From a virus (taxonomy: Duplodnaviria; Heunggongvirae; Uroviricota; Caudoviricetes), in IMG/VR virus record IMGVR_UViG_3300023297_000003: DNA of 64,000 nucleotides, one strand, 5' to 3'. Below are positions 34,182-55,921 of this stretch, one piece after another. Position numbers and translations under genes: made by a program. The stretch's first letter is position 1; each line of letters starts with the position of its first letter. The notes beneath the pieces were generated by a model. It was not told the DNA's origin. It searched no databases and saw only the letters and a program-made list of their open reading frames with translations.

Positions 34182-34210
34182 CCCCCCTAGTCGCGGTCGT
34201 TACACAAGGT

Positions 34211-38333: not shown

Positions 38334-40031
38334 CTACGGGGGCGTTTTCTTGATCGCTTTTGGGGTCCGGCGGCGATCATTCCAGAAGGCCATGAAGCCA
38401 TTGGGGCCGTCCCAGGCTTCCTTGAACGGCTTGTGTTCGCTCTTGATCCTGGGGAGATCTTCCAGATCGTGGGAGCAGCAGGCGCAGACGCTCCCTTGGA
38501 GATCCACGGTGCATTCCCAGATTGCCGTGGTATTCAGTCCCTGGATGTCCTTCAGCCATGCCTGATAGTCCCCCACCGCCCTTTTGACATCAATCTTGGT
38601 GGGCATCCTGGTAGATTCGTTCTCCCTGTCGTGTGCCACGTCGCTCGGGGTAGGCTCGGTCTCGGGATGCTCGGGTTCCGGCCATACCACCAGAAGGGCA
38701 TGGAGGGCGTCGGTGGCCGTCATGATCTTGGTCGTGACGCCTGCCTTGGTGAGCAGTTTGGACAGCAGTTCGTGGGTCTCCCCCCAGGTCTTGTTGATGG
38801 TGTCGGCCAACTTGCGGGGGTCGCTAGGGGGGAAGGTGCCAGGGCTGAGTGCTTGAAACACGGAGCGCAGGCACTGTTCCCACACGCCCATTGGTGTAAC
38901 GGGAGTCTTCGGGATCTGGACCTTCTCGTGCCGGAGATTCCAGTAGGTGAGGAAGCCGAAATCGATGCCGTGCCACGCCGTGTGGAAGGCGTCGTCCGTT
39001 TTCGTAAACTGGTACAGGTCGGACAGGTCTTCGGATTGGCACCGGCTGAGGCCCAGCATCATGGTCCGATATCGTCCCCTTACAGCGCTGTGACGCCACC
39101 CGTGGCAGACCCTCAGCCACCGCTCGTAGTCGTCCAGGACATCCAGGGCTTCGGTCATGGTGGGGGGTTTCGGCTGGTCCGTGGACCCCTCGGAGGCGTC
39201 CTTGGGTCCATACTGAAACGCCCAGAAGGTGAGGAAGCCGAAATCGATGCCGTGCCACACAGCGTGGAGGTCGCCGTTTTCTACAAGGATCTGGGGGAGG
39301 TCATCCATATTTTCGGAGTGACACAGGCGAAGGATCCTCGCCATGGCCCATTGCCGTGCGGGGAGGTTGGTGGTGTCGAACCCGTCAGCCACCTGCAGCC
39401 ACCTGTTGTACCGTGTCAGGTTTTTCAGGACGTTGTACCGGGTCAGAGGAGGGAGGGAGGTGTCCGCCTGCTCCGGGGCCTTCACGGGGGCCGGAGGTGC
39501 CGGTTGGGACGTTGCCGGGGGTTCCAGTGGGGGCTGGTCGATGGTGTCCCAGAACTTCAGGAAACGCTTCCAGGCCAACCTGTAGTGCCCGGAACGGTTG
39601 AGGGTCTCTTCCAGGTCACAGGACCGGAACGATTTGCCCTTGTGGGACAGCCCCGTAAGGGCATACATTGTATCGGTGGTGACCCGCTCGCTATAACGCT
39701 GTACGTTGGGGTCGTCCCCGTGTTGTAACCAACTGTAAAATCGGGTCTTGTGGGACTGGAAGTCACCCGGAGTGGGTCCGGTCTTGTCCTTCCAGAAGGC
39801 CAGGAAGCTGAATTGGGACGTGGCCCAAGCTTCTTGAAGGCCTATGCCTGTCGTTTGTATGACAGCGAGGGCCACGGTTTTTTCGTTAAAGGGCGAGTGT
39901 GTTTCTCGGAGCAGCATGTCAAGGCACAGGGTGTTCGCTCTGATCCGCCTTGGGGCCACGCCCATCTGCTGGAGCCACTCAGCGTACTCGGGCTGGAAGG
40001 CCCTGACTTGTTTCCTGGTCGGGTGTTTCAT
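38334..40031 (-). CDS. tandem integrase core-binding (SAM-like) repeat protein, ~5 repeats
   Basis: repeats of Y..WL...G...  ...AW.G..GF(L/M).(F/Y)W; no RHRY catalytic motif seen. Confidence 0.6.
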   Translation of the reverse strand: MKHPTRKQVRAFQPEYAEWLQQMGVAPRRIRANTLCLDMLLRETHSPFNEKTVALAVIQTTGIGLQEAWATSQFSFLAFWKDKTGPTPGDFQSHKTRFYSWLQHGDDPNVQRYSERVTTDTMYALTGLSHKGKSFRSCDLEETLNRSGHYRLAWKRFLKFWDTIDQPPLEPPATSQPAPPAPVKAPEQADTSLPPLTRYNVLKNLTRYNRWLQVADGFDTTNLPARQWAMARILRLCHSENMDDLPQILVENGDLHAVWHGIDFGFLTFWAFQYGPKDASEGSTDQPKPPTMTEALDVLDDYERWLRVCHGWRHSAVRGRYRTMMLGLSRCQSEDLSDLYQFTKTDDAFHTAWHGIDFGFLTYWNLRHEKVQIPKTPVTPMGVWEQCLRSVFQALSPGTFPPSDPRKLADTINKTWGETHELLSKLLTKAGVTTKIMTATDALHALLVVWPEPEHPETEPTPSDVAHDRENESTRMPTKIDVKRAVGDYQAWLKDIQGLNTTAIWECTVDLQGSVCACCSHDLEDLPRIKSEHKPFKEAWDGPNGFMAFWNDRRRTPKAIKKTPP

Positions 40032-40053
40032 CGTGTTCCTCCTACTGGATCAT

Positions 40054-40079
40054 CTACTCCCTGGCGGCAGCAGATGATC
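40054..40079 (-). promoter_or_regulatory. class A promoter GATCATC-N13-GAGTAG
   Basis: exact match, 22 nt upstream of ATG 40031. Confidence 0.78.
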
Positions 40080-40093
40080 CAGTGTTGAATCTG

Positions 40094-42685
40094 TCATGTG
40101 AGCTTGGCGAGGAGTGCATCCAGCACCTTGGGGTCGGTTCCGGTCTTGGTCTCCCGCCAACGTGCGGCGAGGATCTCCTGGGTCAGGTTGGCCGGGGTAC
40201 CCCTGTCAGGCCAGTTCCTTTTGAGGTACCGAAGTCCTTCGGGGAAGGTGAGGGTCTGCCCCTTGGACCATCCGGCCTTGTGCAGAAGCTCGGTCAGCAG
40301 CGTTTCGAGAACCATCCAGGTGTTGCGGATACTTTCCGCTACCTCGTGGGGGTCGGTGACCCCGGTGATGTTGAGGGTCTTCCTGATCTGCACCAGGGCG
40401 TCCTTGTAGGGGTTGTCCTGGGGTACAGACTTGAAGTCCCAGTCGGCCTTGAGGAGGCGGATGGCCTCCCTGAGTGTGATGAGGGGATCCGCCCTGTTGA
40501 TTCCCGCTTCGTCCATCCAGTTGTTGAGTCTAGCCCAATCCGTTGCCCAACCGTCACGGAAGGACTCAGTCAGTTCAGTAGGGTCAGTGAGGGCGCTGCC
40601 GTGGAACATGGTCTTGATCAGGGTGCGGAAACTCTGTTCATACACATCGGACTGCGGGGTGGTCTCGGGTTTGGGGGCCTCCGCTGCATCCAGGAGAAGC
40701 TGGAAACATTTGCCCATTGTGCTGTCCTGGGGTGTTTCGATACCTGCCTGGGTCATCAGGACATTCAACAAGTCATTGTCTTCCGACCATTCCTTGATGA
40801 TGCTGTCGACCATTTCCTTGGCATTTGCCTTGGGATCATAGTTGGAGTCGAGGGACTTGGCCACGGTCTTGAGGCCCCCCTCCCAGGTCAGGGGCTTGGA
40901 GAGCGCCTCGGCGGGTTCAGGCGTCTCCACCGGGGGCGTCATGACGATGAGGGGCGTCTGAATGTCCCTGTATTCAGTCCAGAAGTGCATGAAGCCGGAG
41001 CCCCCGAGCCAAGCGTCCCGGTAGAAGTTGGACATTGGGATGTTCAGCACGGAGTAGATGTCATCCAAAGTGGGTGAGGTGGAGTGCTTGATGATCTGCC
41101 GGAGTCCACTCATACGGTTGCCGGTCGACTTCCGACTGAGCTTGCGGCTTGTGCTCAGCCAGAGTTCAAATGCGCCCTTGAGGGCCTCGACGTCGGCCTT
41201 GGTGGGCTTCCTGATGTCGGTGGGCGTGTCCGTTACCGGCTCAGGCTCGGGGACCGGCGTGGCCTTCGTGGGGGCCTCGACCGAGATGTCCTGGGCCTGG
41301 TAGAAGATCATGAACTTTCTCCAGGCGTTCCTGTAGTGCTTGGACTTGTTGAGCACCGGGGCGAGGTCGGTCGGGCTGAAGGACTTGACCTTAAGGGACA
41401 GCCCAAGGACTGCCTTGGCGTAGTCGCCAGCCACCCGCTCGGTGTGACCCTGTTCCCTCATCCAGGAGCGGAAGGCGGGAGTCAACGACTGGATCTGGTG
41501 GTGGCTGATCGGAAGGGCGTTCCGTTCGTTCCAGAAGGCCAGGAAGCCGTAGTTTCCGTTCCAGGCATAGTTGGGCGTCTGTTTCATTCCTGAGAGCGCC
41601 TTATTTACGGTTTCCTGGTCCCAGGACGTGACGGTCTTCAGCAACTGCCGGAGGGCCTTGCGGTAAACCTCCGCCGTGTTGGGGGTGCAACCCCGGCGCA
41701 CCACCCAATCGGGGTACTCAGACAGGGACTGGGCTACCTGGGCTTCGGTCGGGAACAGGTGACAATACTTCAAGGGGGTCTCCTTGTTCTTGTTGGGCGT
41801 CTTGGGCTTTGCAGGGATCGGATCCGGTTCCGTGACCTCGGACGGCTTGTTATACTGCTTCCAGAAGGGCACGAAACCGGAGGGGCCGATCCAGGCGTAG
41901 TAGTTGATGTAGGTCGCACGCACGAGGGTGTTGATGTTCATCGGGGTGCCCTTGTGGATCATGCGTTCCGCAGCACTGACCCAGACCCGAACGGAACTGG
42001 ACTTGAAGTTTTGTTCCTTGACCAGCCATTCCCTGTACGCCGGGATGGCGGCAAGTGGGACGGAGAAGTCTTCGGGCATGTCCCAGGTGACGGTCGGGAT
42101 GTTGGCGGGGAGCCTTGCCGTGTCCGGGGTTACCGTGACGTTCTTCCACCATGTCAGCAGCCCAGACTGCCCGAGTGTGGCATAACGGTAACGGAGAGGA
42201 TGCCCGGTCAGGGCCTCCTTCAGGTTCTCGGTCGTGACGTTGGTCACACAGCCCAGGACGATGTGTGCGATTCGCAGGTACTCCTCTACCGTTTCGTGCT
42301 TGAGCAGCCCCCCCGCCTCCATCCAAATCCTGTACTCGGGGAGCCGGTTGATGACGGTCTTGGGGGACACACCCCAGATGGCCGGGGGCGTGTCCTTGGC
42401 CAGGAGCAGGGTGAGACGGAACACCTGGAGGTTGCTCCAAACGGACGCCATATGCGTCTGCTTGTTCTTGCTCGTTTGGCTGGCCCAGTCGTCCGCCACT
42501 ACCTTGTTCACGTCATCGATCGTGAACGGGTCCGGGAGCACCTTCAGGAGGCGATCCAGGTTGAGCAGGTAGTACGTGATGGTCTTCTCGGCCAGTCCCT
42601 TGCCTTGTCGGGCCTTCGTGTAGAGCCAGTTGCGAAAATCGGGGATGAGTTTGCGGATCAAGGACTTGCGGATCTTTTCGTGCAT
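40094..42685 (-). CDS. tandem integrase core-binding (SAM-like) repeat protein, ~6 repeats + 3 C-terminal helical repeats
   Basis: IPDFRNWLYTKARQGKGLAEKTITYYLLNLDRLL resembles XerC/D N-domain F..YL..ERGLS.NT...Y..DL. Confidence 0.65.
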   Translation of the reverse strand: MHEKIRKSLIRKLIPDFRNWLYTKARQGKGLAEKTITYYLLNLDRLLKVLPDPFTIDDVNKVVADDWASQTSKNKQTHMASVWSNLQVFRLTLLLAKDTPPAIWGVSPKTVINRLPEYRIWMEAGGLLKHETVEEYLRIAHIVLGCVTNVTTENLKEALTGHPLRYRYATLGQSGLLTWWKNVTVTPDTARLPANIPTVTWDMPEDFSVPLAAIPAYREWLVKEQNFKSSSVRVWVSAAERMIHKGTPMNINTLVRATYINYYAWIGPSGFVPFWKQYNKPSEVTEPDPIPAKPKTPNKNKETPLKYCHLFPTEAQVAQSLSEYPDWVVRRGCTPNTAEVYRKALRQLLKTVTSWDQETVNKALSGMKQTPNYAWNGNYGFLAFWNERNALPISHHQIQSLTPAFRSWMREQGHTERVAGDYAKAVLGLSLKVKSFSPTDLAPVLNKSKHYRNAWRKFMIFYQAQDISVEAPTKATPVPEPEPVTDTPTDIRKPTKADVEALKGAFELWLSTSRKLSRKSTGNRMSGLRQIIKHSTSPTLDDIYSVLNIPMSNFYRDAWLGGSGFMHFWTEYRDIQTPLIVMTPPVETPEPAEALSKPLTWEGGLKTVAKSLDSNYDPKANAKEMVDSIIKEWSEDNDLLNVLMTQAGIETPQDSTMGKCFQLLLDAAEAPKPETTPQSDVYEQSFRTLIKTMFHGSALTDPTELTESFRDGWATDWARLNNWMDEAGINRADPLITLREAIRLLKADWDFKSVPQDNPYKDALVQIRKTLNITGVTDPHEVAESIRNTWMVLETLLTELLHKAGWSKGQTLTFPEGLRYLKRNWPDRGTPANLTQEILAARWRETKTGTDPKVLDALLAKLT

Positions 42686-42705
42686 AGGGCACCTCCTGAC
42701 ATCCT

Positions 42706-42731
42706 CTACTCCCTGACGGTGTCAGATGATC
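42706..42731 (-). promoter_or_regulatory. class A promoter GATCATC-N13-GAGTAG
   Basis: exact match, 20 nt upstream of ATG 42685. Confidence 0.78.
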
Positions 42732-42777
42732 CAACAGTTCCGACTGGGGTAGAGTGATCTGACAAAAGGAGACCCCA

Positions 42778-43626
42778 ATGCGTTACCCACCGAATGCTGT
42801 ATTTCCTCCAGGGTTCGATACCCCTCCCCGAGTCGAGTCCGCCCCACGGGCGTCCATGAAGTACGTGAACATCCGGGCAAGCGGTGTAGCCGTCCCGATC
42901 CTTGAGAAGGTACAGGGCACTCCAGCGTGGGCCATCGGGGATGACGGTGTGGGGGTGATTCAGATCCCAGAGCCGAACAAGCGGGTACTCCTTCCGATGT
43001 TCACCATCATTGTGACGGACAAGGTGTTCCCCAGCCCCCGGAACATTGTGGCCTCAGTCGGAACTCTCCTCCGGTCCAAGGTGGACGACCTGATGAAGGT
43101 CCAGTCGGGTTGTGACCTGATGGTCATCGCCTTTGAGACGTTGGAAGCCCCCAAGAGAGATGGTAGTGAAGGAACCGTTTGGAGCCTGCAGTGTGGGGTC
43201 GGGTGTCTTCAGAACGATGACGATCTCTATGGTATCGCCACGGACGAGCTGCAGATCGGGGGGGGGGTAGAGTTGCCTGACTGCTGGGACAGGAAGGTCA
43301 CGGAGATCAAGTTGTGGGAGGCTCTCCGGGCGTTAGAAGGGACCTTGTTTGGCCTGGGGGGTGAGCCGCTTGATCAATTTGACCCGTTTGAACAACAGCG
43401 TCCCCTCCGGGGGTTTGATGAGGTGGGGTTCCAGCGGCTGCGGGAGCCCCAGATGGTGATTGGACCAGAAGCGCTGAAGGGGCACATCGGAATACAGCAT
43501 GCCCAGGACCATAGGCGGCGTTGCCATTGGGCCTTCACACTCGCACCCCCAAACCTGACTTCGGAAAATGGATGCGCTGGCAAAGTTCATAGCTTGGTCC
43601 TGGGTGGCGAACACGAAAAGACCTGA
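42778..43626 (+). CDS. hypothetical protein, paralog of 57160..57684
   Basis: WSLQCGVG/WSMVCGIG and VELPDCWD/MELPDTWD; the 3' ~294 nt overlap the convergent gene. Confidence 0.6.
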   Translation: MRYPPNAVFPPGFDTPPRVESAPRASMKYVNIRASGVAVPILEKVQGTPAWAIGDDGVGVIQIPEPNKRVLLPMFTIIVTDKVFPSPRNIVASVGTLLRSKVDDLMKVQSGCDLMVIAFETLEAPKRDGSEGTVWSLQCGVGCLQNDDDLYGIATDELQIGGGVELPDCWDRKVTEIKLWEALRALEGTLFGLGGEPLDQFDPFEQQRPLRGFDEVGFQRLREPQMVIGPEALKGHIGIQHAQDHRRRCHWAFTLAPPNLTSENGCAGKVHSLVLGGEHEKT

Positions 43627-43941
43627 GCCAGGGAATGCGCTCATCCATTTCTCGGGGGTGTAGCTGTAGGCCCAGGCTGAGTACTGGGAAAAGGATTCTA
43701 AGTCACCCCGGAGAGTACTGACGACGACTTTGTATGCCGTACAGGAGGCTTCCTGGCGAGTGAGGGCCTCCTTTGCGGCTCGTTCCAGGGCCTTCTGATC
43801 AGCTTCCCGCTGGGTCTTGTCCCGGAACTCCTGGACATCCTTGTCCGTGAGGAACCAGGAGGGTAGCCCGAAAGAGGCGCTCAGGGTCCGTTTCCAGTTG
43901 GCCCGTTGCTCGGACGTGAGCTTGCCGTCGTCGGTGGTCAT
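43333..43941 (-). CDS. AYKVV-family hypothetical protein
   Basis: AYKVV...GLFVF...P.GTLLFKRVKL shared with 47816..48211 and 48208..48603. Confidence 0.7.
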   Translation of the reverse strand: MTTDDGKLTSEQRANWKRTLSASFGLPSWFLTDKDVQEFRDKTQREADQKALERAAKEALTRQEASCTAYKVVVSTLRGDLESFSQYSAWAYSYTPEKWMSAFPGSGLFVFATQDQAMNFASASIFRSQVWGCECEGPMATPPMVLGMLYSDVPLQRFWSNHHLGLPQPLEPHLIKPPEGTLLFKRVKLIKRLTPQAKQGPF

Positions 43942-43994
43942 TCCGTGATTTCGCACATGGTAATGTTGTCCTTGGCCTCGAATTTCTGTGCCTG

Positions 43995-44675
43995 TTGATA
44001 TTTCAGTTTTACACCGATCAGGGTGGCCAGTGTTGCAATGTTTTTTCTGATGGTGAATTGTCGACCAGCTCTCAGGGAGCTACCAGGCAGGAAGGCCTGG
44101 GTTGGGTCATTCACGTATGCAGAAAGAAGAAGGGATCGAGGAATCGGGGGAAAGCAAAGCATCGTCTCGCCCGCCAACATTATCGAATTTCCTGCGTTCG
44201 TAAGGATGCGCTTCATAAGGCCACCACTGCGATAGCCAAACGGTGTGTGATTGTTGGGATCGAGTCCTTGAATGTGTCAGGGATGATGAAAAACCATTGT
44301 CTGGCTCGAAGTTTATCTGACGCAACGATGGGAAACTTCCTTCGTTGTCTGAAGTACAAGGTAGCTTGGCACGGTGGGACAATCGTAGAGGCAGATCGAT
44401 GGTTCCCCTCGTCCAAGATGTGTTCGGTTTGTGGTGAGGTTAAGCACAAATTAACCTTGAGGGATCGTGTTTTCCATTGTGATTCCTGTGGACACATACA
44501 GGATCGTGATGAGAACGCAGCTTGTAATTTAAGAAATTTGGCCGTCAGTTCGACGGTTACAGCCTGTGGAGAGGAAAGCGCTGGCTTGGTTCATCTGAAC
44601 CAAGTGAAACTATCCTCAATGAAGCAGGAACCTAACCCTGATGGGGGGCCTGTGTCCTCGATTGGGTCAGTTTAG
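43995..44675 (+). pseudogene. tnpB: TnpB C-terminal fragment (RuvC-I missing)
   Basis: KKKGSRNRGKAK, GIESLNVSGM, FPSSKMCSVCG, DRDENAACNL; no N-terminal half. Confidence 0.85.
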
Positions 44676-44683
44676 GAGAACGG
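44024..44683 (+). mobile_element. internally deleted IS607/IS605-type element (family 2)
   Basis: right end TTTAGGAGAACGG identical to the MITE at 7335; left end tentative (GG|TGGCCAG vs GG|TTGCCAG at 6970). Confidence 0.7.
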
Positions 44684-44696
44684 TCCGTAAACGTTC

Positions 44697-45047: not shown

Positions 45048-45066
45048 TGTGACCTCCTACCCTCAG

Positions 45067-45092: not shown

Positions 45093-45121
45093 CCCTGTTG
45101 GGACTTACAGGCACAAAGGAG

Positions 45122-45522: not shown

Positions 45523-47033
45523 TACTTGACAGCACCCGATTTAGTTGCTAAAATCTAACTATTCCTGTTTGAAACAGGAATCAGAGGTTAGTAAATGAAG
45601 TGTCGCATCTTTCGACTTCACAAGGACACCAACCCGTCCAAAATCGATAAGTTGGAAGCCCTGCACAAAGTCTACGTCAAGTATGTCCGTATCTGCGTAC
45701 AAACAATGCTCGACCAGCGAACCCACAATCTCCCGAAGTCCGCCAAACAGACGTTCTTTCCACGAGCTACCAACCTTACATCCCAAATCGAAAAGATCGC
45801 ACGAGACCACGCCATCCAGATCGTGAGCGCTTGGGCCAAGGCCACTTACGCTCGCAAATTGAAGCCGACTATCACCAATCTCAAACACGATGGTACCCTT
45901 ACCGAACAAGACGCCAAAGCACTCTACACCATTGGATTAAAATCCATCAGTAAGCCATGGAAATTCATTACCCAAGACCACCTCGACGCCTACCACGTTC
46001 TGCTGGACACATACGGAGGCAATAAGCCTATCGTAAGGGACAACCTGCCCATGATGTTGTCAGAAATGACGGCTCGATTGGAAGACACAACTAAAGCTCC
46101 TCTCGGGGATTTCTGGCTGAGGGTGTCTTCGTTAGAACCTCGCAAGTCCGTCTGGTTACCTCTCGTTGGGAATCCTTACATCCAGCAGGCTGACCAAGTT
46201 AGCAAAGGTGTTTCAGCCCGCAAGACCAAGCGAGGCTTTTGGCGTTTTGAGGCGGTCAGCAAGGACGAATGGATTGTTCCTGAAGCACAGGAAGGTTGGC
46301 CTAAGTTGGGTGTGGACGTTGGTTTGAATGTGCTCGCAGCTACATCAGATGGCGTGACCTATGGTGAACACGTCAAACTCAAGTTCGATAAACTCTACGC
46401 TCGTGTCAGGAATCTCAGAGCAAATCGCCAACGACAGGACTTAAAGGACAACAGTCCAAAGTTGGACCACCTTGAGAGCAAACTGAGTGGGTTGATCAAA
46501 ACAGAAACGGGTCGTGTAGTAAACACCCTTATCGTTCGTCATCCTAAGACAGTGTTCGTGGTTGAGGATCTTGATCTTCGAGGTTGTCGGGGTCAAAAGA
46601 GGTTTGCTTACAGGGCGTTACAAGTCAACTTGGAAAGGAAGACTCCGGTTGAGAAGGTGAACCCAGCTTATACTTCGCAGGAGTGTCCTTCTTGTGGTTA
46701 TGTTCATCGAGGAAACCGAAATTCAACAAGGTTCCATTGCCGCTCGTGCGGCAGGAAAGCTCATGCTGATTGGGTGGGAAGTTCTGGTGTGCTCAGACGT
46801 TCTGGAGACGAACACATCGGTACTAACGATCATCCGAGAGGCGTAAAACGAGTGCTGAGAGAGCGATTCCGTGTTAAGCGGACCAGTTCCTTGGGATTCG
46901 GGCGATTAGAGCGGTCGTCAATCGAGCCCTTACCGTTGGGCCGGAGGTTTACTACCGTTGGATCAGATTCGTCTGGCAGCGGCACAGCTTCAAACTTGAT
47001 GCCTGTTACATTCCAGCAGGTTTTAAGGAACGG
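45523..47033 (+). mobile_element. non-autonomous IS607-family element (family 1, tnpB only)
   Basis: GG|TACTTGACA-17-TAAAAT left end, hairpin ATTCCTGTTT-G-AAACAGGAAT, right end GGTTTTAAGGAACGG. Confidence 0.92.
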
Positions 47034-47061
47034 TGATGTGCTCATCCACAAGGGGCTGTAG
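45595..47061 (+). CDS. tnpB: TnpB endonuclease, close paralog of 16209..17624
   Basis: GVDVG / VVEDL / HAD intact; ORF runs 28 nt past the right end. Confidence 0.92.
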   Translation: MKCRIFRLHKDTNPSKIDKLEALHKVYVKYVRICVQTMLDQRTHNLPKSAKQTFFPRATNLTSQIEKIARDHAIQIVSAWAKATYARKLKPTITNLKHDGTLTEQDAKALYTIGLKSISKPWKFITQDHLDAYHVLLDTYGGNKPIVRDNLPMMLSEMTARLEDTTKAPLGDFWLRVSSLEPRKSVWLPLVGNPYIQQADQVSKGVSARKTKRGFWRFEAVSKDEWIVPEAQEGWPKLGVDVGLNVLAATSDGVTYGEHVKLKFDKLYARVRNLRANRQRQDLKDNSPKLDHLESKLSGLIKTETGRVVNTLIVRHPKTVFVVEDLDLRGCRGQKRFAYRALQVNLERKTPVEKVNPAYTSQECPSCGYVHRGNRNSTRFHCRSCGRKAHADWVGSSGVLRRSGDEHIGTNDHPRGVKRVLRERFRVKRTSSLGFGRLERSSIEPLPLGRRFTTVGSDSSGSGTASNLMPVTFQQVLRNGDVLIHKGL

Positions 47062-49829: not shown

Positions 49830-51605
49830 ACGAAAGCATTATAAAAGTTCCTTGACTTTTGGCACAATCGGGCCTATGTTGTCCGTATGAGGGATGAAAA
49901 ACCACTTCGAGTTCGTGCGTCGGTGGCAGCCAAACTCCTTGGTCTTCAAGGAGTAGCTCTTCGTAGAAGAGCCGCCAAGGGAGAAATACCTGCTATCCGG
50001 TCCGACACTGGACGCTGGTTTATCCCCACATGGTGGGTCGAAGAACAGGCAGGAGTGACCCCGAAGACGACAGAGTGTCGGTGCGCTATCTACGCAAGGG
50101 AATCTTCATCTGAGAACAAGGCAGCACTGGCTTCGCAAGTTGATGGGCTCCGTCGGTATGCTACAGCAAAAGGCTGGCAAATTGTTCAGGTGGTCACAGA
50201 AATCGGCTCTGGCATTAACGACGAGCGACGAAAACTCCACCGGCTTCTGGCTGCTAAGGATTTCGATGTGCTTCTTGTAGAGCACAAAGACAGGCTCACT
50301 CGATTCGGTTTCCGCTGGTTCGTAGCCCTTGCGCCGTTTCGGATCGAAGTCGTCAACGTCGCTGAAGACAAGACCTCCGATCTTATGGAAGACCTCGTGG
50401 CCATCATAACGTCCTTCTGTGCTCGTCTTTACGGGCAGCGACGAGGCAGGAAGAAGACAGAAGCAGCAATCCAAGCGCTGGAGAAGAAAAAGTAGATGCG
50501 TAAGGCGCACAAGACCTTCTCTGTCCCTACTATGCGACGCTCCAGTCGCATCTTCATCAACGATCTGAACACAGGAAAGCGGGACGAACTTGTAGATTTT
50601 CTGCGATTGTGCCACGACACCACGCAGTACTTTGTAGATCTCTTTTGGCAACGAAAGGACTTCTCGGCTACTCTCGCAGACCTCCCTACAGTACATCGAG
50701 GACGAGACAGGTTCAAAATCACGACCCGACTTGCTCAAGCCCTTGCCAAACAAGCGAAGGAAACGGTCCGATCTGCCCACGCCAACAAGCACAGGAAACC
50801 TAGTCTTCGTAGACACACAGCCACACTGTGCTCGCATTTCGTAACCGTTTCGGAGTTCGATGGGGCATTCGATTACGCTATCAAACTGATCGGCTCTGGA
50901 GCCCCCCGAGTGGTCATTCCTACAAAGAGCACCGCACACATCAACAAGATGCTCAGTAACGGCTGGAAGATCAGCAAGTCTATTCGGCTCGGTCGTAGAA
51001 ACGACGATCTCTACATAGACCTCTTGCTGGAGAAGCCCAAAGCCCCCAAGCGGAAGATCGGAAAAATCCTCGGGATGGATTCCAACTACAAGGCTGGTCT
51101 TGTCTTCTCTGATGGCCAACAGATCGCAGATGAACCATATGCCCTTATCCAACAATTTGGACGTCGCAGGAAGCACACAAGAACCTATATCAAATCGGTG
51201 GTCGGTCACGCCCTCAAGTCTCTTGATTTGAGTGGTGTCCAAGAGCTGTGCATCGAGGACCTGAAACATGTGAAACGTGGTACACGGGGAAAGTTTCCTC
51301 GTCGGTTTAATAGGCGGTTGTCTCATTGGCTTTATGCCTATACGGCGGATCTCATTGAACGGAAATGTGAGGAAGAGGGGGTCCGGCTGGAACGGAAGAA
51401 CCCCTGGAAAACCTCGCAGTTCTGTCGAGTATGCCGTAGATGGGACAGGCGAAATCGGAGAGGGGACAAGTTCAAGTGTGTGCATTGTGGGCATTCCGAA
51501 CATGCCGACCTCAATGCTGCCAAGAACTTGGAGCTTCTTGGGTTGGCGGGAGTCTATGGTCTCCGTTTACTACCAAATCCTCTGCCGGTTTATGCCGGTT
51601 CTGGG
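49830..51605 (+). mobile_element. IS607-family element (family 3, autonomous)
   Basis: GG core at 49828-29 and 51604-05 fixed by in-frame empty site; TTGACT-17-TATGTT promoter 6 nt before the tnpA ATG. Confidence 0.92.
49887..50495 (+). CDS. tnpA: IS607 transposase (HTH + serine recombinase)
   Basis: AIYARESS, EIGSG, LLVEHKDRLTRFG, EDLVAIITSFCARLYGQR. Confidence 0.95.
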   Translation: MRDEKPLRVRASVAAKLLGLQGVALRRRAAKGEIPAIRSDTGRWFIPTWWVEEQAGVTPKTTECRCAIYARESSSENKAALASQVDGLRRYATAKGWQIVQVVTEIGSGINDERRKLHRLLAAKDFDVLLVEHKDRLTRFGFRWFVALAPFRIEVVNVAEDKTSDLMEDLVAIITSFCARLYGQRRGRKKTEAAIQALEKKK

Positions 51606-51608
51606 TAA
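50496..51608 (+). CDS. tnpB: compact TnpB endonuclease (370 aa)
   Basis: RuvC-I LGMDSN, RuvC-II CIEDL, CRVC/CVHC, HADLNAAKNL; stop TAA supplied by flanking DNA. Confidence 0.9.
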   Translation: MRKAHKTFSVPTMRRSSRIFINDLNTGKRDELVDFLRLCHDTTQYFVDLFWQRKDFSATLADLPTVHRGRDRFKITTRLAQALAKQAKETVRSAHANKHRKPSLRRHTATLCSHFVTVSEFDGAFDYAIKLIGSGAPRVVIPTKSTAHINKMLSNGWKISKSIRLGRRNDDLYIDLLLEKPKAPKRKIGKILGMDSNYKAGLVFSDGQQIADEPYALIQQFGRRRKHTRTYIKSVVGHALKSLDLSGVQELCIEDLKHVKRGTRGKFPRRFNRRLSHWLYAYTADLIERKCEEEGVRLERKNPWKTSQFCRVCRRWDRRNRRGDKFKCVHCGHSEHADLNAAKNLELLGLAGVYGLRLLPNPLPVYAGSG

Positions 51609-51699
51609 CCATTAGGTAAACAGACCGTGAGAATGTCCCCTGGTGTAGCCAGGGCCTTGATGGTGACGTCTTTGCTGTACTCATCAATGGGAAAGGCCA

Positions 51700-52248
51700 T
51701 CAGAAATCACCGTCCCCGTAGATGTCATCGTATGTCAGGAGGCCCTCGTCGGGGTGCCTGTCGATTACCCAGTCGGGGATGTAACGATCGGCCCAGATGG
51801 ACCGCATCACGTTGCCTCCTGTTGACGGTATAGGGGTCTGCTGTTTCCTTGTGGCCTCTTCCGATTTCCACCATCTAAATTTGATCCCTTGCGGTCCGTC
51901 ATAGATCTCTTTCAGCCGAGCGCCCTGTGCTCGGTCTTCCGTTTCAGCGTAGAGATACAGGACATAGTCGCCCCGTCTGGTCGTGGTACTTACCTTTGCC
52001 AGATGGAAGAGGCCTTCTGACAGCTCCTTTTCGGCCACCTCCACTAGTCGACCCATGCTCGGACCGAAGAAGAGCCATTTGCCGGACATTTTGGGATAGG
52101 TCCCATCCGCCGACATATGGAACCAACCGTCTTCCGTGTGTACTCTCATGTCAGCTCCTCTCGTTACAAGCTCTACTCCAAGCGTACCCTGATGACCTAG
52201 CGCCTTGACAGTGACGTCCTTGCTGTACTCATCAAGGGGGTAGATCAT
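51700..52248 (-). CDS. hypothetical protein (likely start ATG 52149, MRVHTEDG)
   Basis: GAGGAG RBS and promoter variant at 52173-52197 precede 52149. Confidence 0.55.
   Translation of the reverse strand: MIYPLDEYSKDVTVKALGHQGTLGVELVTRGADMRVHTEDGWFHMSADGTYPKMSGKWLFFGPSMGRLVEVAEKELSEGLFHLAKVSTTTRRGDYVLYLYAETEDRAQGARLKEIYDGPQGIKFRWWKSEEATRKQQTPIPSTGGNVMRSIWADRYIPDWVIDRHPDEGLLTYDDIYGDGDF
52173..52197 (-). promoter_or_regulatory. class A promoter variant (GGTCATC-N12-GAGTAG)
   Basis: 23 nt upstream of ATG 52149. Confidence 0.55.
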
Positions 52249-52269
52249 GGTCCTGATTTTACCCCCCTA

Positions 52270-52623
52270 TTAGTCCTCTACCTTAAGTTTCATCAGGAAC
52301 ATGGGGTCGCCCCTTTTGTACAGGCCCAACATACAGCGGGGTCTGTAGTTTTGTCTGCTGAAACGCCAAAACAACCCGTCCTCTTTGCATTTCTGGCAGA
52401 GACCTAGATGGGGGTAGTCCGGGAGGGAAGCTCCCTCACAAGCCGCACAGTAGTGCCTTCCACAGTGTATGCAACGATGTTTGAGGAGTTCGGCCCACTC
52501 CTCCTCCGTTTTTTGTTGTACCGTTGTCCTGCTTAGTTGGACATCCTTATTTGTCACCAGTTTCCCGCAAAGATCGCATTGAACCCTTACTCGCAGTTTC
52601 AATCCGTCTAGCGCAATGCTCAT
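52270..52623 (-). CDS. Cys-rich zinc-finger protein
   Basis: CDLC, CIHC, CAAC, CQKC. Confidence 0.6.
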   Translation of the reverse strand: MSIALDGLKLRVRVQCDLCGKLVTNKDVQLSRTTVQQKTEEEWAELLKHRCIHCGRHYCAACEGASLPDYPHLGLCQKCKEDGLFWRFSRQNYRPRCMLGLYKRGDPMFLMKLKVED

Positions 52624-52626
52624 GAG

Positions 52627-53556
52627 TTACCGCCCATCCCTGGTCACAGAGATTGCTTCGGCCACTGTCCAGTCAGGCAGAGCGTCGCACCAGAACCCAG
52701 CGGCCCCGTCGTGACCGCCCCCTCCCATGCTCTTAGCGATAGCGGCCATGGAGATGTCGTCACGGAGCGGATTGCGAAAAAGAGTGACCTTCCATTTGTT
52801 CCGAGAACCGTGGAAGGCGAAGACCAAGACCCCTACGTGGTTGTCCTTCCAGAGTCCGTCCACTACCTTGGAGTTGGACAGGGGGGCATTGATGGCAAGC
52901 CAGTCCTGGTCCTTCCATCGGATGTCCAAAGCACACGCCCGAGCCAACTTGTGATTCTGGGCCTGGACGTATTTCGAGATGGCGTTCCCCGCACGGAGGA
53001 TCTTGGGCTCGAGTTCTCCGCAATAGATCAGAAGGCCCTTCCAGAGCCAGGGGTTCTTGTGAGGATCAGTCTCTTCCTCCGCCTTCATCCCGTACTGGAA
53101 AGGGAGGACTTCGGGATCCTCGTGATCCCAAACATCGTAGCGGCCAAGCATCCGCACGGTGTAGGGCATCGGCTTTCCGGGGAAGAAATGTACCCACGCC
53201 TTTTCGCAACCGGAGAGGCCGTCATCGAAGTGTAAAGCGTTGCCCTGGAAGACGGTGGCGTCCTTTCCCTTGCTCTGCACTGTTTTGACGATCTCCTGGA
53301 TATTGGGCTCGTGATGGTCGAGCCAGATGATTCTCTCGGGGTGCCAGTCCAGTTTCCCAGCGAGGCGTATGAAATCCTGAGCGGGAGGGGTCCAGTCCAC
53401 AAGGACAACGGTATCCCTCGTCAGGATGTCGTTATGGGGAAAGTCGTCCCCGTGGTCAATGGGATGCAGAATAGAGCCAGGAAGGGCCTTTGAACAGACG
53501 GCCCCGCCGCAATGCCCGTCCAGGTCTGCGGAGTGGTAGAAAATATGCGTTGCCAT
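52627..53556 (-). CDS. DHH/DHHA1 family phosphoesterase (NrnB-like)
   Basis: YHSADLDG, VLVD, WLDHH, GRYDVW, GGGGHDGAAGF. Confidence 0.9.
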   Translation of the reverse strand: MATHIFYHSADLDGHCGGAVCSKALPGSILHPIDHGDDFPHNDILTRDTVVLVDWTPPAQDFIRLAGKLDWHPERIIWLDHHEPNIQEIVKTVQSKGKDATVFQGNALHFDDGLSGCEKAWVHFFPGKPMPYTVRMLGRYDVWDHEDPEVLPFQYGMKAEEETDPHKNPWLWKGLLIYCGELEPKILRAGNAISKYVQAQNHKLARACALDIRWKDQDWLAINAPLSNSKVVDGLWKDNHVGVLVFAFHGSRNKWKVTLFRNPLRDDISMAAIAKSMGGGGHDGAAGFWCDALPDWTVAEAISVTRDGR

Positions 53557-53592
53557 TAGTCAACTCTCCTTCAAGTTCCATCCACACAAGCT

Positions 53593-53618
53593 CTACTCCA
53601 ATCGCACCCTTGATGATC
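53593..53618 (-). promoter_or_regulatory. class A promoter GATCATC-N13-GAGTAG
   Basis: exact match upstream of the DHH gene. Confidence 0.75.
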
Positions 53619-53684
53619 TCTGAGGGTCTCCGATTGTGCCCTTGCCCGGTGTTACGGAGTAGACTTACAGAACGGAGGGGACCG

Positions 53685-53912
53685 ATGAAGACACCACTAG
53701 CAGCGATGGAGCTTGGTAAAGATCTGTGGAAGATCGTGTATGAAACAGAAGAGGCCGAAGCGCTGTTTGCCTGGCGGGTGGTGCTCATGCGGAAGCCTAC
53801 CCCCTTGGAGTTCCGAGTCCTGGCATCCTGCGCTTCCAAAACGGACGGCAAACCGGACGTTCACTACCTGTACGAGATCCTACCCCCGGCGGGAGAACCC
53901 TATGTCCTCTAG
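53685..53912 (+). CDS. hypothetical protein
   Basis: MKTPLAAM... behind GGAGGGG. Confidence 0.55.
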   Translation: MKTPLAAMELGKDLWKIVYETEEAEALFAWRVVLMRKPTPLEFRVLASCASKTDGKPDVHYLYEILPPAGEPYVL

Positions 53913-54015
53913 GCCGTTTCAATCCACGCATATTCTTTTCAGAAGATGCGACAGCGATAAGCACCTAAAGAACACACGAATTGTCCCTCCTTGTCAAATG
54001 TTTTCTTAGGAGCAA

Positions 54016-54525
54016 TTGATGTCTAAGCGGATCACGAAGGCCCTCTGGAAAAAGTTCCGGCAGGAGAACGCTGTTGGTCAAGACTGCCAACTAATCACCG
54101 TGACCAACGCCCACACCTACTGGACGGGGCAGGTCGTGTCCCCCGAGGAGTACGAGGAACTGGTTGATCTCACAGGCTGCCGTTACGGAACCGCTAATGG
54201 CATCCAGGCTGCCCTGGACCGTTTCGGACTGGAGTTCGTGGAGGAGCCTGTGTGGCCCTCGTTCATGGGCACCAAGGATCTCCCCTGTGAGATCAACGTG
54301 TGGCACAAACGGTACGGTTCCCATTCCGTCCTGGCAGTAGACCTGTGTGCAAAAACTGAGGCTGTGAGGCTGCTGAACTTCGACTACCTCACAACTGCCG
54401 AAGGATGGATGTTCCTTGAGGATCTCCATCACTTTGAGTGCAAAAACCCGAACAGAAAGGAACCTCGCTGGTCCGGGCGGACGATCAGGCTTCGGGAGTC
54501 GTCGGGATCTGGGACAATTTCCTGA
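54016..54525 (+). CDS. possible C39-like/papain-fold peptidase
   Basis: QDCQLITVTNA (Cys) ... GSHSVLAVD (His); AGGAG RBS. Confidence 0.45.
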   Translation: MMSKRITKALWKKFRQENAVGQDCQLITVTNAHTYWTGQVVSPEEYEELVDLTGCRYGTANGIQAALDRFGLEFVEEPVWPSFMGTKDLPCEINVWHKRYGSHSVLAVDLCAKTEAVRLLNFDYLTTAEGWMFLEDLHHFECKNPNRKEPRWSGRTIRLRESSGSGTIS

Positions 54526-55921
54526 GTAGGTCGTCCACGGGGGTACTCGGGAGGGTGTTTTTCTCTTTCTCAATGTACCGAGCGGCGAGGGCCTGAGTCA
54601 GCATTTCCTTGAAGCCCGACACCTTGGCCTGGGTGTCCGCATCCCGCAGCCGGATCAGTTTCGCCATCAGGGTGTAACAGTCGTCAGGGTCCGCTCCGGG
54701 CTTCACCAGATCATCACCATCCAGCAGGACTGACAGTTTGCGGAACGCCGCCAACCAGTCACGGGAGGTACGCCCCCGCATCAGCGACGGTGACCCCTTG
54801 AGGTGACGGATGAACATGCCAGCGAACTGCCGGGCCGGTCGTCCGGGGTCACCCTCTGGGGGGTAGCCGAAGGCATTGGTCACGGACAAGAGCGCTTCCT
54901 TCCACGGGTTGGGCCGGTTCGTCACGATCTGGACGACATCCTGGATCTTGTCCGCCACGACTTCTGCGGACATGTTCTCACTATCATAGATCCTTAAGGA
55001 ACGGGCCACACGATGCATCGCTGTTTCCCAGGGATTGTTCTGTTCATCATAGAACTTTTTATTTGGGGAGAAGTTGTCTTCTGATGTCACTATCGGATTG
55101 TAGGTGTCCTCCGTTGGGGTCTCTGAGGCGCTGTACTCCTTGAGGAAGGTCAGGAAGCCTTTGGGGCCTTCCCAGGCGTCGGTGTACCACTCTGGCTGGG
55201 TTTTTAAAGCTAGAGCGATGACCATCTGGCTGACGCCCCTCTTCCCAATCACGTTTTGGATGTACCGACAGAAATTGACCAAACTGAGGCCCCTCAGATC
55301 ATGATGTCTGTCGACCCAGGTCCGGTATTCAGGGAAGAGGTTGATGACGTCTTCGGTGGTCAACCGGCCTATCGGTCCCTTGGCTTCGTTCCAGTAGGCC
55401 ATGAACCCGGACTGTCCTAACCAATGGCTTGTGTCAAAGTTAGACTGCCCCGATTGTTTGAGGGCAACCCACTCTTCCGTGAACCGTTCTGGGGACACAT
55501 CGATCAATCGCTGGATGTACAGGAGATGGTGCTTGATCGTCTCCCCCTGCAATCCCCGGTTATGAGCGGTCCACCGGATGTATTCCGGAAGGTGCTTTTT
55601 GACTTCGGCTTTGGTAGGGAAGCTCATAACTCCTCCATTGTTCTGACTCAGAGAGGGAGACGCCTCCGTCCTCCGCCAATAGGCCATGAATCCGGCTGGC
55701 CCATTCCAAAAGGATGACTGGAAGGTCAGGATGGTCTGCAGACGGGTTGTCACCCTTTCTTCGAACTGGTGTGCGGGTACGTCTAACAGGTCTTGGATCA
55801 GGTCTAGGATACACTGGACATAGTACCGGACCGTTTTCTGTGAGAGATTGTGGGTCGCTTCCACCCACCGGACGTACTCCGGGAGGTGCTTTTGGATCTC
55901 GGCTTTGGTAGGGAAGCTCAT
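54485..55921 (-). CDS. tandem integrase core-binding (SAM-like) repeat protein, 3 repeats
   Basis: MSFPTKAEIQKHLPEYVRW / MSFPTKAEVKKHLPEYIRW / FPEYRTW, each ending W.G..GF(M/L). Confidence 0.65.
   Translation of the reverse strand: MSFPTKAEIQKHLPEYVRWVEATHNLSQKTVRYYVQCILDLIQDLLDVPAHQFEERVTTRLQTILTFQSSFWNGPAGFMAYWRRTEASPSLSQNNGGVMSFPTKAEVKKHLPEYIRWTAHNRGLQGETIKHHLLYIQRLIDVSPERFTEEWVALKQSGQSNFDTSHWLGQSGFMAYWNEAKGPIGRLTTEDVINLFPEYRTWVDRHHDLRGLSLVNFCRYIQNVIGKRGVSQMVIALALKTQPEWYTDAWEGPKGFLTFLKEYSASETPTEDTYNPIVTSEDNFSPNKKFYDEQNNPWETAMHRVARSLRIYDSENMSAEVVADKIQDVVQIVTNRPNPWKEALLSVTNAFGYPPEGDPGRPARQFAGMFIRHLKGSPSLMRGRTSRDWLAAFRKLSVLLDGDDLVKPGADPDDCYTLMAKLIRLRDADTQAKVSGFKEMLTQALAARYIEKEKNTLPSTPVDDLLRKLSQIPTTPEA

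What the first reader, a model, noticed from the sequence alone, without database searches (positions are those of the whole stretch)
38334..55921. Three proteins built from ~14 tandem integrase core-binding-like domains with no catalytic domain
Seen: 38334..40031 (~5 copies), 40094..42685 (~6) and 54485..55921 (3) repeat an ~80-90 aa unit, PT(K/R)A(E/D)V...(L/F)P(E/D)Y..W(L/V)...G...T...Y...I..L...AW.G..GF(M/L).(F/Y)W, joined by Pro/Thr-rich linkers. A second helical repeat type (WE..L..V...L...DP..(L/V)A..I...W...L..AG) follows, and each gene has its own promoter motif. Established: F..YL..ERGLS.NT...Y..DL..F is the N-terminal core-binding (SAM-like) DNA-binding domain of XerC/D-type tyrosine recombinases, normally one copy followed by the RHRY catalytic domain. 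Inference: these are modular multivalent DNA-binding arrays derived from integrase CB domains. They could organise or shield phage DNA, compete with host XerCD/integrases at dif-like sites, or bind the CCCACAGAATCTAG motif, which has a copy at 55998 just upstream of the third gene and a cluster next to the first two. I do not know this architecture from characterised proteins.
Basis: partly seen in the sequence, partly recalled or inferred. Interest (0 to 1): 0.8.

Follow-up and report, generated by a model that had tools for sequence, protein, structure and literature searches.

The report
Phage proteins of tandem recombinase DNA-binding domains
Three genes of an uncultivated ~528-kb phage encode proteins built from 3, 5 and 6 copies of the DNA-gripping front domain of XerD-type recombinases, with no cutting domain. 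This layout has not been described, and it most likely makes non-enzymatic, multi-site DNA binders, but no binding has been tested.

Summary
Three minus-strand ORFs (565, 863 and 478 aa) contain 5, 6 and 3 copies of an ~80-aa unit, each with a per-copy HMM E-value of 1e-10 to 1e-28. A 15th copy lies in a fourth paralog outside the window.

The unit is a diverged tyrosine-recombinase core-binding (SAM-like) domain:
- An AlphaFold model (pLDDT 94.5) aligns best with XerD residues 3-90 (Z 8.3, rmsd 2.5 A).
- At least 17 of the 22 best solved-structure rows are integrase N-domains, and all 10 ESM-Atlas shape rows are integrase or SAM-like clusters (TM 0.65-0.71).
- Pfam Phage_int_SAM_5 passes its cut-off on the 863-aa protein.
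- The repeat profile retrieves genuine integrases at their SAM-like domains.

No catalytic domain was found in these proteins or in the 188-kb record.

The family is rare: about ten unnamed metagenomic phage proteins with 1-4 copies. Most share a conserved ~30-aa C-terminal tail.

Function is inferred, not shown. The most likely role is FliZ-like, catalysis-free, multivalent DNA binding.

Verdict: a real new architecture of a known domain, of moderate to high interest.

The parts
38334..40031 (-). P0001, 565 aa. Five A (core-binding-like) domains and one B unit; no conserved C-terminal tail.
   Evidence: ORF, translation, HMM copies, coordinates.
39780..40031 (-). P0001 A1 (aa 1-84). Abuts A2 as a tight pair.
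39537..39785 (-). P0001 A2 (aa 83-165). Short subtype ending AWKRFLKFW, without the G..G turn.
39213..39455 (-). P0001 A3 (aa 193-273).
38931..39173 (-). P0001 A4 (aa 287-367). 38% identical to A3, so a recent tandem duplicate.
38646..38873 (-). P0001 B unit (aa 387-462), a helical unit of unknown fold lying between A4 and A5.
38370..38612 (-). P0001 A5 (aa 474-554).
40054..40079 (-). Exact copy of the phage promoter motif GATCATC-N13-GAGTAG, ending 22 nt upstream of the P0001 ATG. A GGAGG Shine-Dalgarno sequence follows it.
40094..42685 (-). P0002, 863 aa. Six A domains, three B units and the conserved C-terminal tail.
42392..42679 (-). P0002 A1 (aa 3-98). The most XerD-like at sequence level, and the site of the Pfam Phage_int_SAM best stretches.
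42134..42376 (-). P0002 A2 (aa 104-184).
41849..42073 (-). P0002 A3 (aa 205-279).
41519..41761 (-). P0002 A4 (aa 309-389). Abuts A5 as a tight pair.
41288..41518 (-). P0002 A5 (aa 390-466). Short subtype, 42% identical to P0001 A2.
40967..41215 (-). P0002 A6 (aa 491-573).
40172..40876 (-). P0002 B1-B3 (aa 604-838), three ~76-aa helical units.
40097..40186 (-). P0002 C-terminal tail motif (aa 834-863), of the form L..(A/I)LAAR(Y/W).E...G...S.(V/L)D.LL..L.
42706..42731 (-). Exact promoter motif GATCATC-N13-GAGTAG, ending 20 nt upstream of the P0002 ATG.
54485..55921 (-). P0003, 478 aa. Three A domains, a helical region and the conserved C-terminal tail.
55664..55921 (-). P0003 A1 (aa 1-86), the copy that was modelled: pLDDT 94.5, five helices.
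55379..55627 (-). P0003 A2 (aa 99-181). 40% identical to A1.
55130..55372 (-). P0003 A3 (aa 184-264).
54512..54604 (-). P0003 C-terminal tail motif (aa 440-470).
55961..55966 (-). GAGTAG half-motif upstream of P0003. There is no GATCATC partner at N13.

Best explanation
Shown. P0001, P0002 and P0003 are paralogs of a small phage-specific family. Their building block (the 'A' domain, ~80 aa, five helices) is a diverged copy of the N-terminal core-binding (CB, SAM-like) domain of XerD-type tyrosine recombinases. The domains are strung together either as tight pairs or as singles separated by 12-30-aa Pro/Thr-rich linkers. No recombinase catalytic domain is present, so the proteins cannot cut or rejoin DNA.

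Inferred. They most likely act as non-catalytic, multivalent DNA-binding proteins in the manner of FliZ, the one characterised catalysis-free CB-like protein. Each A domain would lay its second helix (the equivalent of CB helix alphaB, which has a variable, basic exposed face) into the DNA groove. The flexible array would occupy several sites at once, to repress, organise or bridge DNA. The divergence between copies (median 20% identity) could give each copy a different preference. The conserved ~30-aa C-terminal tail on P0002, P0003 and most relatives, absent from P0001, would be a constant docking or assembly element. The A array would be the variable part, with 1-6 copies that are gained and lost between close phage relatives. 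The DNA targets are unknown.
For: Repeat reality: 15 copies at E 1e-10 to 1e-28.

Fold:
- The AF2 model of P0003 aa 1-86, built with the 15-copy alignment, has pLDDT 94.5 and pTM 0.84.
- In the exhaustive VIA-align search, the best of 48,161 chains is XerD 1a0p_A residues 3-90 (Z 8.3, rmsd 2.5 A, 76 aa aligned). At least 17 of the top 22 rows are titled integrase or recombinase and align over their N-terminal domains: Brujita Int, XerA, IntI, lambda Int CB, XerH and NESG CB fragments.
- In the ESM-Atlas shape search, all 10 rows are Phage_integrase or Phage_int_SAM clusters (TM by query 0.65-0.71, rmsd 2.2-3.0).

Sequence:
- Pfam Phage_int_SAM_5 scores 26.4 bits on P0002 against a cut-off of 22.3. 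SAM_4 and SAM_1 also hit, at E 5e-5 and 1e-3.
- The repeat profile searched against 1.84 billion proteins gave 48 hits. Of the 36 hits scanned, 13 carry Pfam Phage_int_SAM and 5 carry Phage_integrase. The hits fall on the SAM-like domains of those proteins, for example in P0030, P0034 and P0046.

No catalytic domain:
- No PF00589 hit in the three proteins or anywhere in the 188-kb record, while all 14 control genomes hit.
- The C-terminal half of P0003 is predicted all-helical with no strands, at low confidence (pLDDT 60).

DNA-binding lean:
- Across 30 family copies, the exposed positions of helix 2 (29, 32, 36, 39, 40, 43, 44) are 30-40% Lys/Arg with few acidic residues.
- The six A domains of P0002 have net charge +2 to +7.
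- hhalign against E. coli FliZ aligns A columns 16-53 with FliZ 92-131 (P 3.3e-4, probability 38%). This puts A column 32 opposite FliZ R108, which lies in the helix that PMC3367168 equates with the DNA-binding helix 2 of integrases.

Family architecture:
- The C-terminal tail is conserved in 9 proteins.
- A contig 94% identical in DNA to this phage carries a further 4-copy member at a place where this genome has an IS607-type element.
Against: No DNA binding was measured or modelled.

Several A domains are neutral or slightly acidic: P0003 has net 0 to +1, and P0001 A3-A5 have net -1.

The most conserved feature, AW.G..GF..FW, is aromatic and glycine-rich and replaces the stretch where canonical CB helix alphaD sits. 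The canonical second DNA-contacting helix is therefore remodelled.

Foldseek found no significant match in PDB or AFDB/Swiss-Prot. The VIA Z of 8.3 is, by that tool's own note, within the range that small helical bundles can reach by common arrangement. The case rests on the consistency of the hit list together with the sequence evidence.

hhalign against single XerD or FliZ sequences is weak: probability 4% for XerD and 38% for FliZ.

All neighbouring genes are ORFans, so genomic context gives no functional hint.
Confidence: 0.5

Rival explanations
1. The CB fold has been repurposed as a protein-binding module. On this reading the arrays are flexible scaffolds or adaptors, for example host-takeover, anti-defence or virion-associated proteins. 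Their A domains would each grip a protein partner, and the conserved C-terminal tail would dock them to a common phage structure.
For: About half of the window's A domains are near-neutral. The family-specific, best-conserved motif is an aromatic/Gly patch that is absent from canonical CB domains. The layout of Pro/Thr-rich linkers, a variable head and a constant tail, together with presence/absence variation between near-identical phages, is typical of fast-evolving interaction proteins.
Against: Every characterised use of this fold that I know of is nucleic-acid binding: recombinases and FliZ (PMC3367168, PMC8138268). The aromatic motif may simply be hydrophobic core. Helix 2 keeps a basic exposed face.
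Confidence: 0.25
2. The arrays are decoys or poisons of tyrosine recombination. They would occupy dif-like or att core sites, or join XerC/D, integrase or satellite-integrase assemblies through CB-CB contacts. This would block chromosome-dimer resolution or the integration or excision of competing elements.
For: The closest structural relatives are Xer-type CB domains. The proteins have no catalytic domain, so occupancy without turnover is the only possible outcome.
Against: No dif-like site, host genome or partner recombinase is available to test against. Identity to XerD-type CB domains is only about 12-15%, which argues against mimicry of a particular host enzyme. Six different domains in one chain are not needed to block a two-half-site target.
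Confidence: 0.08
3. The arrays specifically read the CCCACAGAATCTAG motif cluster next to P0001/P0002, in an iteron-like organisation.
For: The motif is strongly over-represented: 13 matches at up to 2 mismatches against 0.55 expected. It is concentrated at 34.5-37.4 kb, 1-4 kb from the 3' end of P0001. One imperfect copy lies 74 nt upstream of P0003.
Against: The only link is proximity. The motif's first bases overlap the spacer/-10 edge of the genome-wide promoter, so RNA polymerase or a sigma factor is at least as likely to be its reader. Motif spacing is irregular (106-880 nt) and does not match the array geometry. The copy near P0003 has 2 mismatches.
Confidence: 0.07
4. The ORFs are decayed remnants of integrase genes or a repeat-expansion artefact, with no function.
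For: None beyond the absence of a catalytic domain and the lack of annotation.
Against: The frames are long and intact (478-863 aa), with Shine-Dalgarno sequences and phage promoters. The domain core is conserved at protein level across copies of about 20% identity and in about ten distant homologs from other samples whose DNA is no longer alignable. The tail motif is conserved. The fold prediction is confident.
Confidence: 0.03

Closest known systems
Core-binding (CB / Phage_int_SAM) domain of simple tyrosine recombinases, XerD type (PDB 1A0P N-domain; Pfam PF02899, PF13495, PF13102)
   Same: Same helical fold over about 76-82 residues (Z 8.3, TM 0.65-0.71). Helices A and B share the sequence pattern (F/Y)..WL...gLs..T...Y...L. 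Pfam SAM_5 passes its cut-off on P0002.
   Different: There are up to six copies per chain instead of one, and no catalytic domain follows. The last helix is remodelled into the family-specific AW.G..GF..FW. Individual copies fall below Pfam domain thresholds. Several copies are uncharged.
FliZ of E. coli/Salmonella (catalysis-free CB-like domain; global repressor that binds -10-like DNA; PMC3367168)
   Same: A CB-like domain used without a recombinase catalytic domain. hhalign aligns A columns 16-53 in register with FliZ 92-131, including the R108 DNA-binding helix (paper read). It is the best functional model for how an A domain could work.
   Different: FliZ has one such domain in a 183-aa bacterial regulator, whereas here 3-6 domains sit in phage proteins of 478-863 aa with extra B units and a tail. 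The similarity is weak (probability 38%), so membership is not established.
RitA subgroup of tyrosine recombinases ('recombinases in trio'; PMC8138268)
   Same: RitA is the only recombinase subgroup reported to have two sequential CB domains. The tight A-A pairs here (P0001 A1-A2, P0002 A4-A5, P0003 A2-A3) resemble that arrangement.
   Different: RitA keeps the catalytic domain and never has more than two CB domains. No sequence relationship was tested.
Other catalysis-free tandem SAM-like proteins in metagenomes: P0011 (554 aa, zinc ribbon plus a run of tandem SAM_5-like units), P0032, and the CPR giant fibre proteins with two cytoplasmic CB domains noted earlier in this scan (e1-1007436 and others)
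   Same: Tandem CB-like domains without a catalytic domain.
   Different: They belong to different sequence families and lack the AW.G..GF..FW motif, the B units and the tail. The CPR proteins are membrane-anchored with two domains only. All are uncharacterised.

Membership tests
Phage_int_SAM / core-binding domain superfamily (domain level) | Four-to-five-helix bundle superposable on the N-terminal domain of XerD or lambda Int. | tested here: met
   Model pLDDT 94.5. XerD 3-90 gives Z 8.3, rmsd 2.5 A over 76 aa, and at least 17 of the top 22 rows are integrase N-domains. All 10 Atlas rows are integrase/SAM-like clusters, TM 0.65-0.71. Foldseek against PDB and Swiss-Prot was silent.
Phage_int_SAM / core-binding domain superfamily (domain level) | Match to the curated Pfam models above the gathering score. 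| tested here: inconclusive
   P0002 scores 26.4 bits on PF13102 against a cut-off of 22.3, but as a sum over copies with no single stretch passing. P0001 and P0003 fall below the cut-offs. Single copies reach E 0.02-0.06 at best. The reciprocal profile search does retrieve Pfam-verified SAM-like domains at library-wide E 2.6e-5 to 5.5e-4.
Phage_int_SAM / core-binding domain superfamily (domain level) | Binds core-type DNA sites through helices B and D. | not testable with these tools
   Only indirect evidence: a basic exposed face on helix 2, and a helix-D region remodelled into AW.G..GF..FW.
Tyrosine recombinase / phage integrase (whole protein) | C-terminal catalytic domain (PF00589) with the RKHRH pentad and tyrosine nucleophile. 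| tested here: not met
   No PF00589 match in P0001-P0003 or in the whole 188-kb record, while 14 of 14 control genomes matched. The non-A parts are helical B units and a tail. These proteins are therefore not recombinases.
FliZ-like catalysis-free CB regulators | Detectable homology to FliZ's integrase-like region. | tested here: inconclusive
   hhalign gives probability 38% and P 3.3e-4 over 38 columns, in register with FliZ 92-131.
FliZ-like catalysis-free CB regulators | Sequence-specific DNA binding that represses transcription. | not testable with these tools
   Needs EMSA, DAP-seq or reporter assays.
RitA-type double-CB recombinases | Two sequential CB domains followed by a catalytic domain. 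| tested here: not met
   Tight A-A pairs exist, but no catalytic domain is present. The RitA description is from PMC8138268.

The most novel reading that the evidence does not exclude
The A-domain arrays could be a natural modular DNA-reading system, comparable in logic to zinc-finger or TALE arrays but built from recombinase core-binding domains. Each diverged A domain would recognise its own short DNA word through the variable face of helix 2. Huge phages would shuffle, duplicate and lose domains (1-6 per protein, differing between near-identical phages) to retarget the proteins. The constant C-terminal tail would recruit a common effector or anchor.
Probability: 0.12. Interest if true: 0.85.

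Novelty: new variant of a known kind. Interest (0 to 1): 0.58.

Why it matters
The core-binding domain is known almost only as the non-catalytic half of tyrosine recombinases. FliZ shows that one copy can be domesticated as a regulator, and RitA shows that two copies can sit in one recombinase. Here a huge phage carries 15 copies in four genes, up to six per chain, with no enzyme domain, in a family that varies between close relatives. If the domains bind DNA, this is a new way for a virus to build multivalent and possibly retargetable DNA binders. That bears on how giant phages organise or regulate half-megabase genomes or interfere with host DNA. If the domains bind proteins instead, it would be the first case I know of where this recombinase fold has been exapted for protein recognition. 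In either case the family gives a compact, well-folding ~80-aa module that is easy to test in vitro.

Tried and rejected
Structure and sequence searches that found nothing:
- Foldseek of the A model against PDB and AFDB/Swiss-Prot gave nothing significant. Only the exhaustive aligner and the Atlas shape search found the fold.
- hmmsearch of the A profile, the tail profile and the B profile against PDB sequences gave only chance hits.
- Pfam on the tail gave nothing.
- PHROGs on the three proteins gave only a weak 'integrase' hit for P0002.
- hhalign of the A profile against the XerD single sequence gave probability 4%.
- hhalign of B against A found no relationship.

Searches for relatives:
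- tblastn and megablast against 50,697 deposited phage genomes found no match.
- The search for homologous proteins found only the window's own proteins plus P0005 and P0021.
- Pattern-based searches of IMG/VR with P0015, P0002, the alignments and a back-translated AW.G..GF..(F/Y)W word found no true relative.
- The giant (2-3.7 kaa) hits of the profile search are spurious. They come from a 'Y.Y.W.GPSGF' word in SprB-like beta repeats.

Other attempts:
- Homodimer test of the C-terminal tail (complex prediction, two copies of A3): no verdict, with a score of 0.35 against a mark of 0.42. It counts neither for nor against.
- AF2 of the C-terminal half of P0003 gave pLDDT 60, too low for a fold search.
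- Atlas look-ups of the C-terminal parts gave no usable structural match. A feature-level FliZ/SAM-like lead (score 0.91, 115 shared features) may be leakage from the A domains and was not confirmed.
- Neighbouring genes have no Pfam or PHROG family, apart from a DHH phosphoesterase and TnpB-like genes.

The rejected idea that these are decayed integrase pseudogenes is treated under the rival explanations.

Full report
**Setting.** The window is bases 86975-150974 of a 188-kb IMG/VR virus record that CheckV rates 36% complete. The same proteins occur on a 528,282-nt contig, so this is a huge uncultivated phage. Earlier scan notes call it an Antarctic-lake phage, which I did not check. Coding density is high, most genes are ORFans, and a phage-specific promoter motif, GATCATC-N13-GAGTAG, recurs 22 times at up to 2 mismatches against 1.3 expected.

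**Observation.** An HMM seeded on the three obvious copies in P0003 was iterated over all six-frame ORFs of the record. It converged on 15 copies: 5, 6 and 3 in the window's proteins, plus one in a fourth gene 10 kb beyond the window. Per-copy E-values ranged from 4.6e-10 to 3.7e-28, and the next best ORF scored E 0.67. The alignment (A1; 30 copies in A5) gives the consensus PT..(E/D)V...P.Y..WL...G....T..Y...L..L......AW.G..GF(L/M).(F/Y)W. W19, W72 and F78 are nearly invariant.

The copies are old. Median pairwise identity is 20%, with three younger pairs at 38-42%. There are two subtypes: one with the W.G..GF..FW ending, and a shorter one ending (H)Y(R).AW(K/R).F..F(W/Y).

The copies are arranged as tight pairs or as singles separated by 12-29-aa linkers:
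- Tight pairs are P0001 A1-A2, P0002 A4-A5 and P0003 A2-A3.
- The linkers have a Pro+Thr+Ser fraction of 0.31-0.50.

The second repeat type (B, ~76 aa, helical) is real in strict form in P0002 (three copies) and P0001 (one copy, lying between A4 and A5), with E 1e-30 to 1e-35. P0003 and the other relatives carry only a shorter (N)PW(E/K)..L..V variant, seen by eye.

**What the A unit is.**
- Structure. AlphaFold2 on P0003 aa 1-86, using the 15-copy alignment, gave a five-helix model at pLDDT 94.5 and pTM 0.84.
  - Foldseek found nothing significant in PDB or Swiss-Prot.
  - The exhaustive aligner, run over 48,161 representative chains, ranked XerD (1a0p_A residues 3-90; Z 8.3, rmsd 2.5 A, 76 aa) first. 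It filled the list below with N-terminal domains of integrases: Brujita Int, archaeal Xer/XerA, IntI, lambda Int CB, XerH and many NESG 'integrase N-domain' fragments. At least 17 of the top 22 rows are of this kind.
  - The tool warns that Z about 8 is not decisive for small helical bundles. The single-family consistency of the list matters more than the score.
  - An independent shape search of the ESM Atlas agrees. All ten rows are Phage_integrase or Phage_int_SAM clusters, with TM 0.65-0.71 and rmsd 2.2-3.0 over 73-82 residues.
- Sequence.
  - Three Pfam SAM-like models hit P0002. PF13102 scores 26.4 bits against a cut-off of 22.3, and PF13495 and PF02899 score E 5e-5 and 1e-3. These scores are sums over copies.
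  - In the reverse direction, the A profile searched against 1.84 billion representative proteins gave 48 hits. Of the 36 hits I scanned, 13 carry Pfam Phage_int_SAM domains and 5 carry the Phage_integrase catalytic domain. The profile matches fall on those proteins' SAM-like domains.
  - The very long hits are false. They are caused by a Y.Y.W.GPSGF word in SprB-like repeats.
- Conclusion.

**No catalytic domain.**
- PF00589 is absent from the three proteins and from the whole 188-kb record, while the same search hits all 14 control genomes.
- What is not A domain is B units, linkers and a tail.
- The C-terminal half of P0003 is predicted all-helical, though only at pLDDT 60.
- B is unrelated to A by profile-profile comparison and has no PDB sequence relative.

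**The family.** Outside this phage the profile found about ten unnamed metagenomic proteins with full-length A domains:

| Protein | A copies |
|---|---|
| P0004 | 2 |
| P0005 | 4 |
| P0007 | 2 |
| P0012 | 1 |
| P0015 | 1 |
| P0016 | 1 |
| P0018 | 1 |
| P0027 | 1 |
| P0021 | 2 |
| P0022 | 1 |

- Nine members, including P0002 and P0003 but not P0001, end in a conserved ~30-aa motif, L..(A/I)LAAR(Y/W/F).E...G...S.(V/L)D(D/E)LL..L. It matches no Pfam or PDB family.
- All contexts are phage-like ORFan neighbourhoods.
- The contig carrying P0007 shares a 54%-identical homolog of the gene at window 36486-37391.
- P0004 is preceded by another family member on its contig.
- The contig carrying P0005 is 94% identical in DNA to this phage up to window position ~14815 and then diverges. 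Where that contig has the 4-copy gene behind a copy of the phage promoter, this genome has an IS607-type serine recombinase plus TnpB. The family is therefore multi-copy and variable between close relatives.
- No relative was found in 50,697 deposited phage genomes or, by the pattern searches possible here, in IMG/VR.

**Regulatory claims.**
- P0001 and P0002 each have an exact GATCATC-N13-GAGTAG motif ending 20-22 nt before the start codon, and a good Shine-Dalgarno sequence.
- P0003 has only the GAGTAG half.
- CCCACAGAATCTAG is truly over-represented, with 13 matches against 0.55 expected. It is clustered at 25.6-37.4 kb, and the copy 74 nt upstream of P0003 has two mismatches.
- The first eight bases of that motif recur at the spacer/-10 edge of several promoter copies.
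- Nothing links the motif to these proteins except position.

**How it most likely works.** The shown steps are the fold, the copy number, the absence of a catalytic domain, the linkers, the tail and the variability. The rest is inference.
- The only characterised catalysis-free CB-like protein is FliZ. It binds DNA at -10-like sequences through the helix that corresponds to integrase helix 2 (PMC3367168).
- hhalign places A columns 16-53 in register with FliZ 92-131, putting FliZ R108 opposite A column 32. The statistics are weak (probability 38%, P 3.3e-4).
- Across 30 A copies, the exposed positions of helix 2 are 30-40% Lys/Arg and poor in acidic residues, while helix 3 is acidic.
- The A domains of P0002 are all basic, at +2 to +7.
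- I therefore favour non-catalytic, multivalent DNA binding, with the flexible array engaging several sites and the tail serving as a constant docking element.

Three things count against this. Half of the window's domains are uncharged. The region equivalent to CB helix D is remodelled into an aromatic/glycine motif. No binding was tested.

The main rival is that the fold was exapted for protein binding.

**Comparison with what is known.**
- At domain level this is a diverged member of the CB/SAM-like superfamily.
- At protein level it is not a tyrosine recombinase, because a defining feature, the catalytic domain, was tested and not met.
- RitA recombinases are reported as the only recombinase subgroup with two sequential CB domains (PMC8138268).
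- FliZ has one CB-like domain and no catalytic domain.
- Earlier notes of this scan describe CPR surface fibres with two cytoplasmic CB domains.
- The profile search also turned up an unrelated tandem SAM_5-like protein, P0011.
- Arrays of three to six CB-like domains without a catalytic domain, with this motif, B units and tail, were not found in any characterised protein or in the papers I could search.

I rate it a new variant of a known kind.

**Limits.**
- The record is about a third of the genome.
- The homodimer test of the tail gave no verdict.
- The fold of B and of the tail is unresolved.

Noticed in passing
outside the window: G000 160084-162383 (-), seen in L006: A fourth family member has one A domain, a long helical region and the conserved tail, but it is split into two overlapping frames (278 and 541 aa stop-to-stop). 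Comparison with the intact 542-aa ortholog P0015 places the frame switch at a short G-run (..TTGGGAAG..). This is either a 1-nt indel or an assembly error. An earlier scan note mentions a 756-aa form on another record.
   Followed up: partly
window 14815-17624, and L009: A metagenomic contig 94% identical to window 10649-14815 then diverges and carries a 4-copy family member (P0005) behind a phage promoter motif. At that place this genome has an IS607-type pair: a MerR-HTH serine recombinase at 15583-16212 and a TnpB-like gene at 16209-17624.
   Followed up: partly
window 43995-44675 and 45595-47061 (+): Two TnpB/Cas12f-like ORFs (OrfB_IS605 plus a TNB zinc ribbon) lie between the two CB-array loci. 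The first (226 aa) looks truncated.
   Followed up: no
window 52627-53556 (-): A DHH/DHHA1 phosphoesterase (phrog_4771, E 6e-28) lies downstream of P0003 with its own exact promoter motif at 53593-53618. It was the only neighbour apart from the TnpB-like ORFs to match a known family.
   Followed up: no
window 25632-37407 and 55995-56008: CCCACAGAATCTAG occurs 13 times at up to 2 mismatches, against 0.55 expected. It is often preceded by CCCC..AAGGG-like bases, and its first bases also form the spacer/-10 edge of several GATCATC-N13-GAGTAG promoters. It may be a second promoter or operator class.
   Followed up: partly
window 31268-31519: A 12-nt tandem repeat (GCCCTTGCACTG-like) of about 20 units lies inside the ORF 31156-31965 (269 aa, no Pfam family).
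   Followed up: no
P0011 (NCBI-sourced metagenomic protein, 554 aa): An unrelated protein with an N-terminal zinc ribbon followed by a run of near-identical ~100-aa units (four detected by the A profile) that hit Phage_int_SAM_5, with no catalytic domain. Tandem CB-like arrays therefore seem to have arisen more than once.
   Followed up: partly
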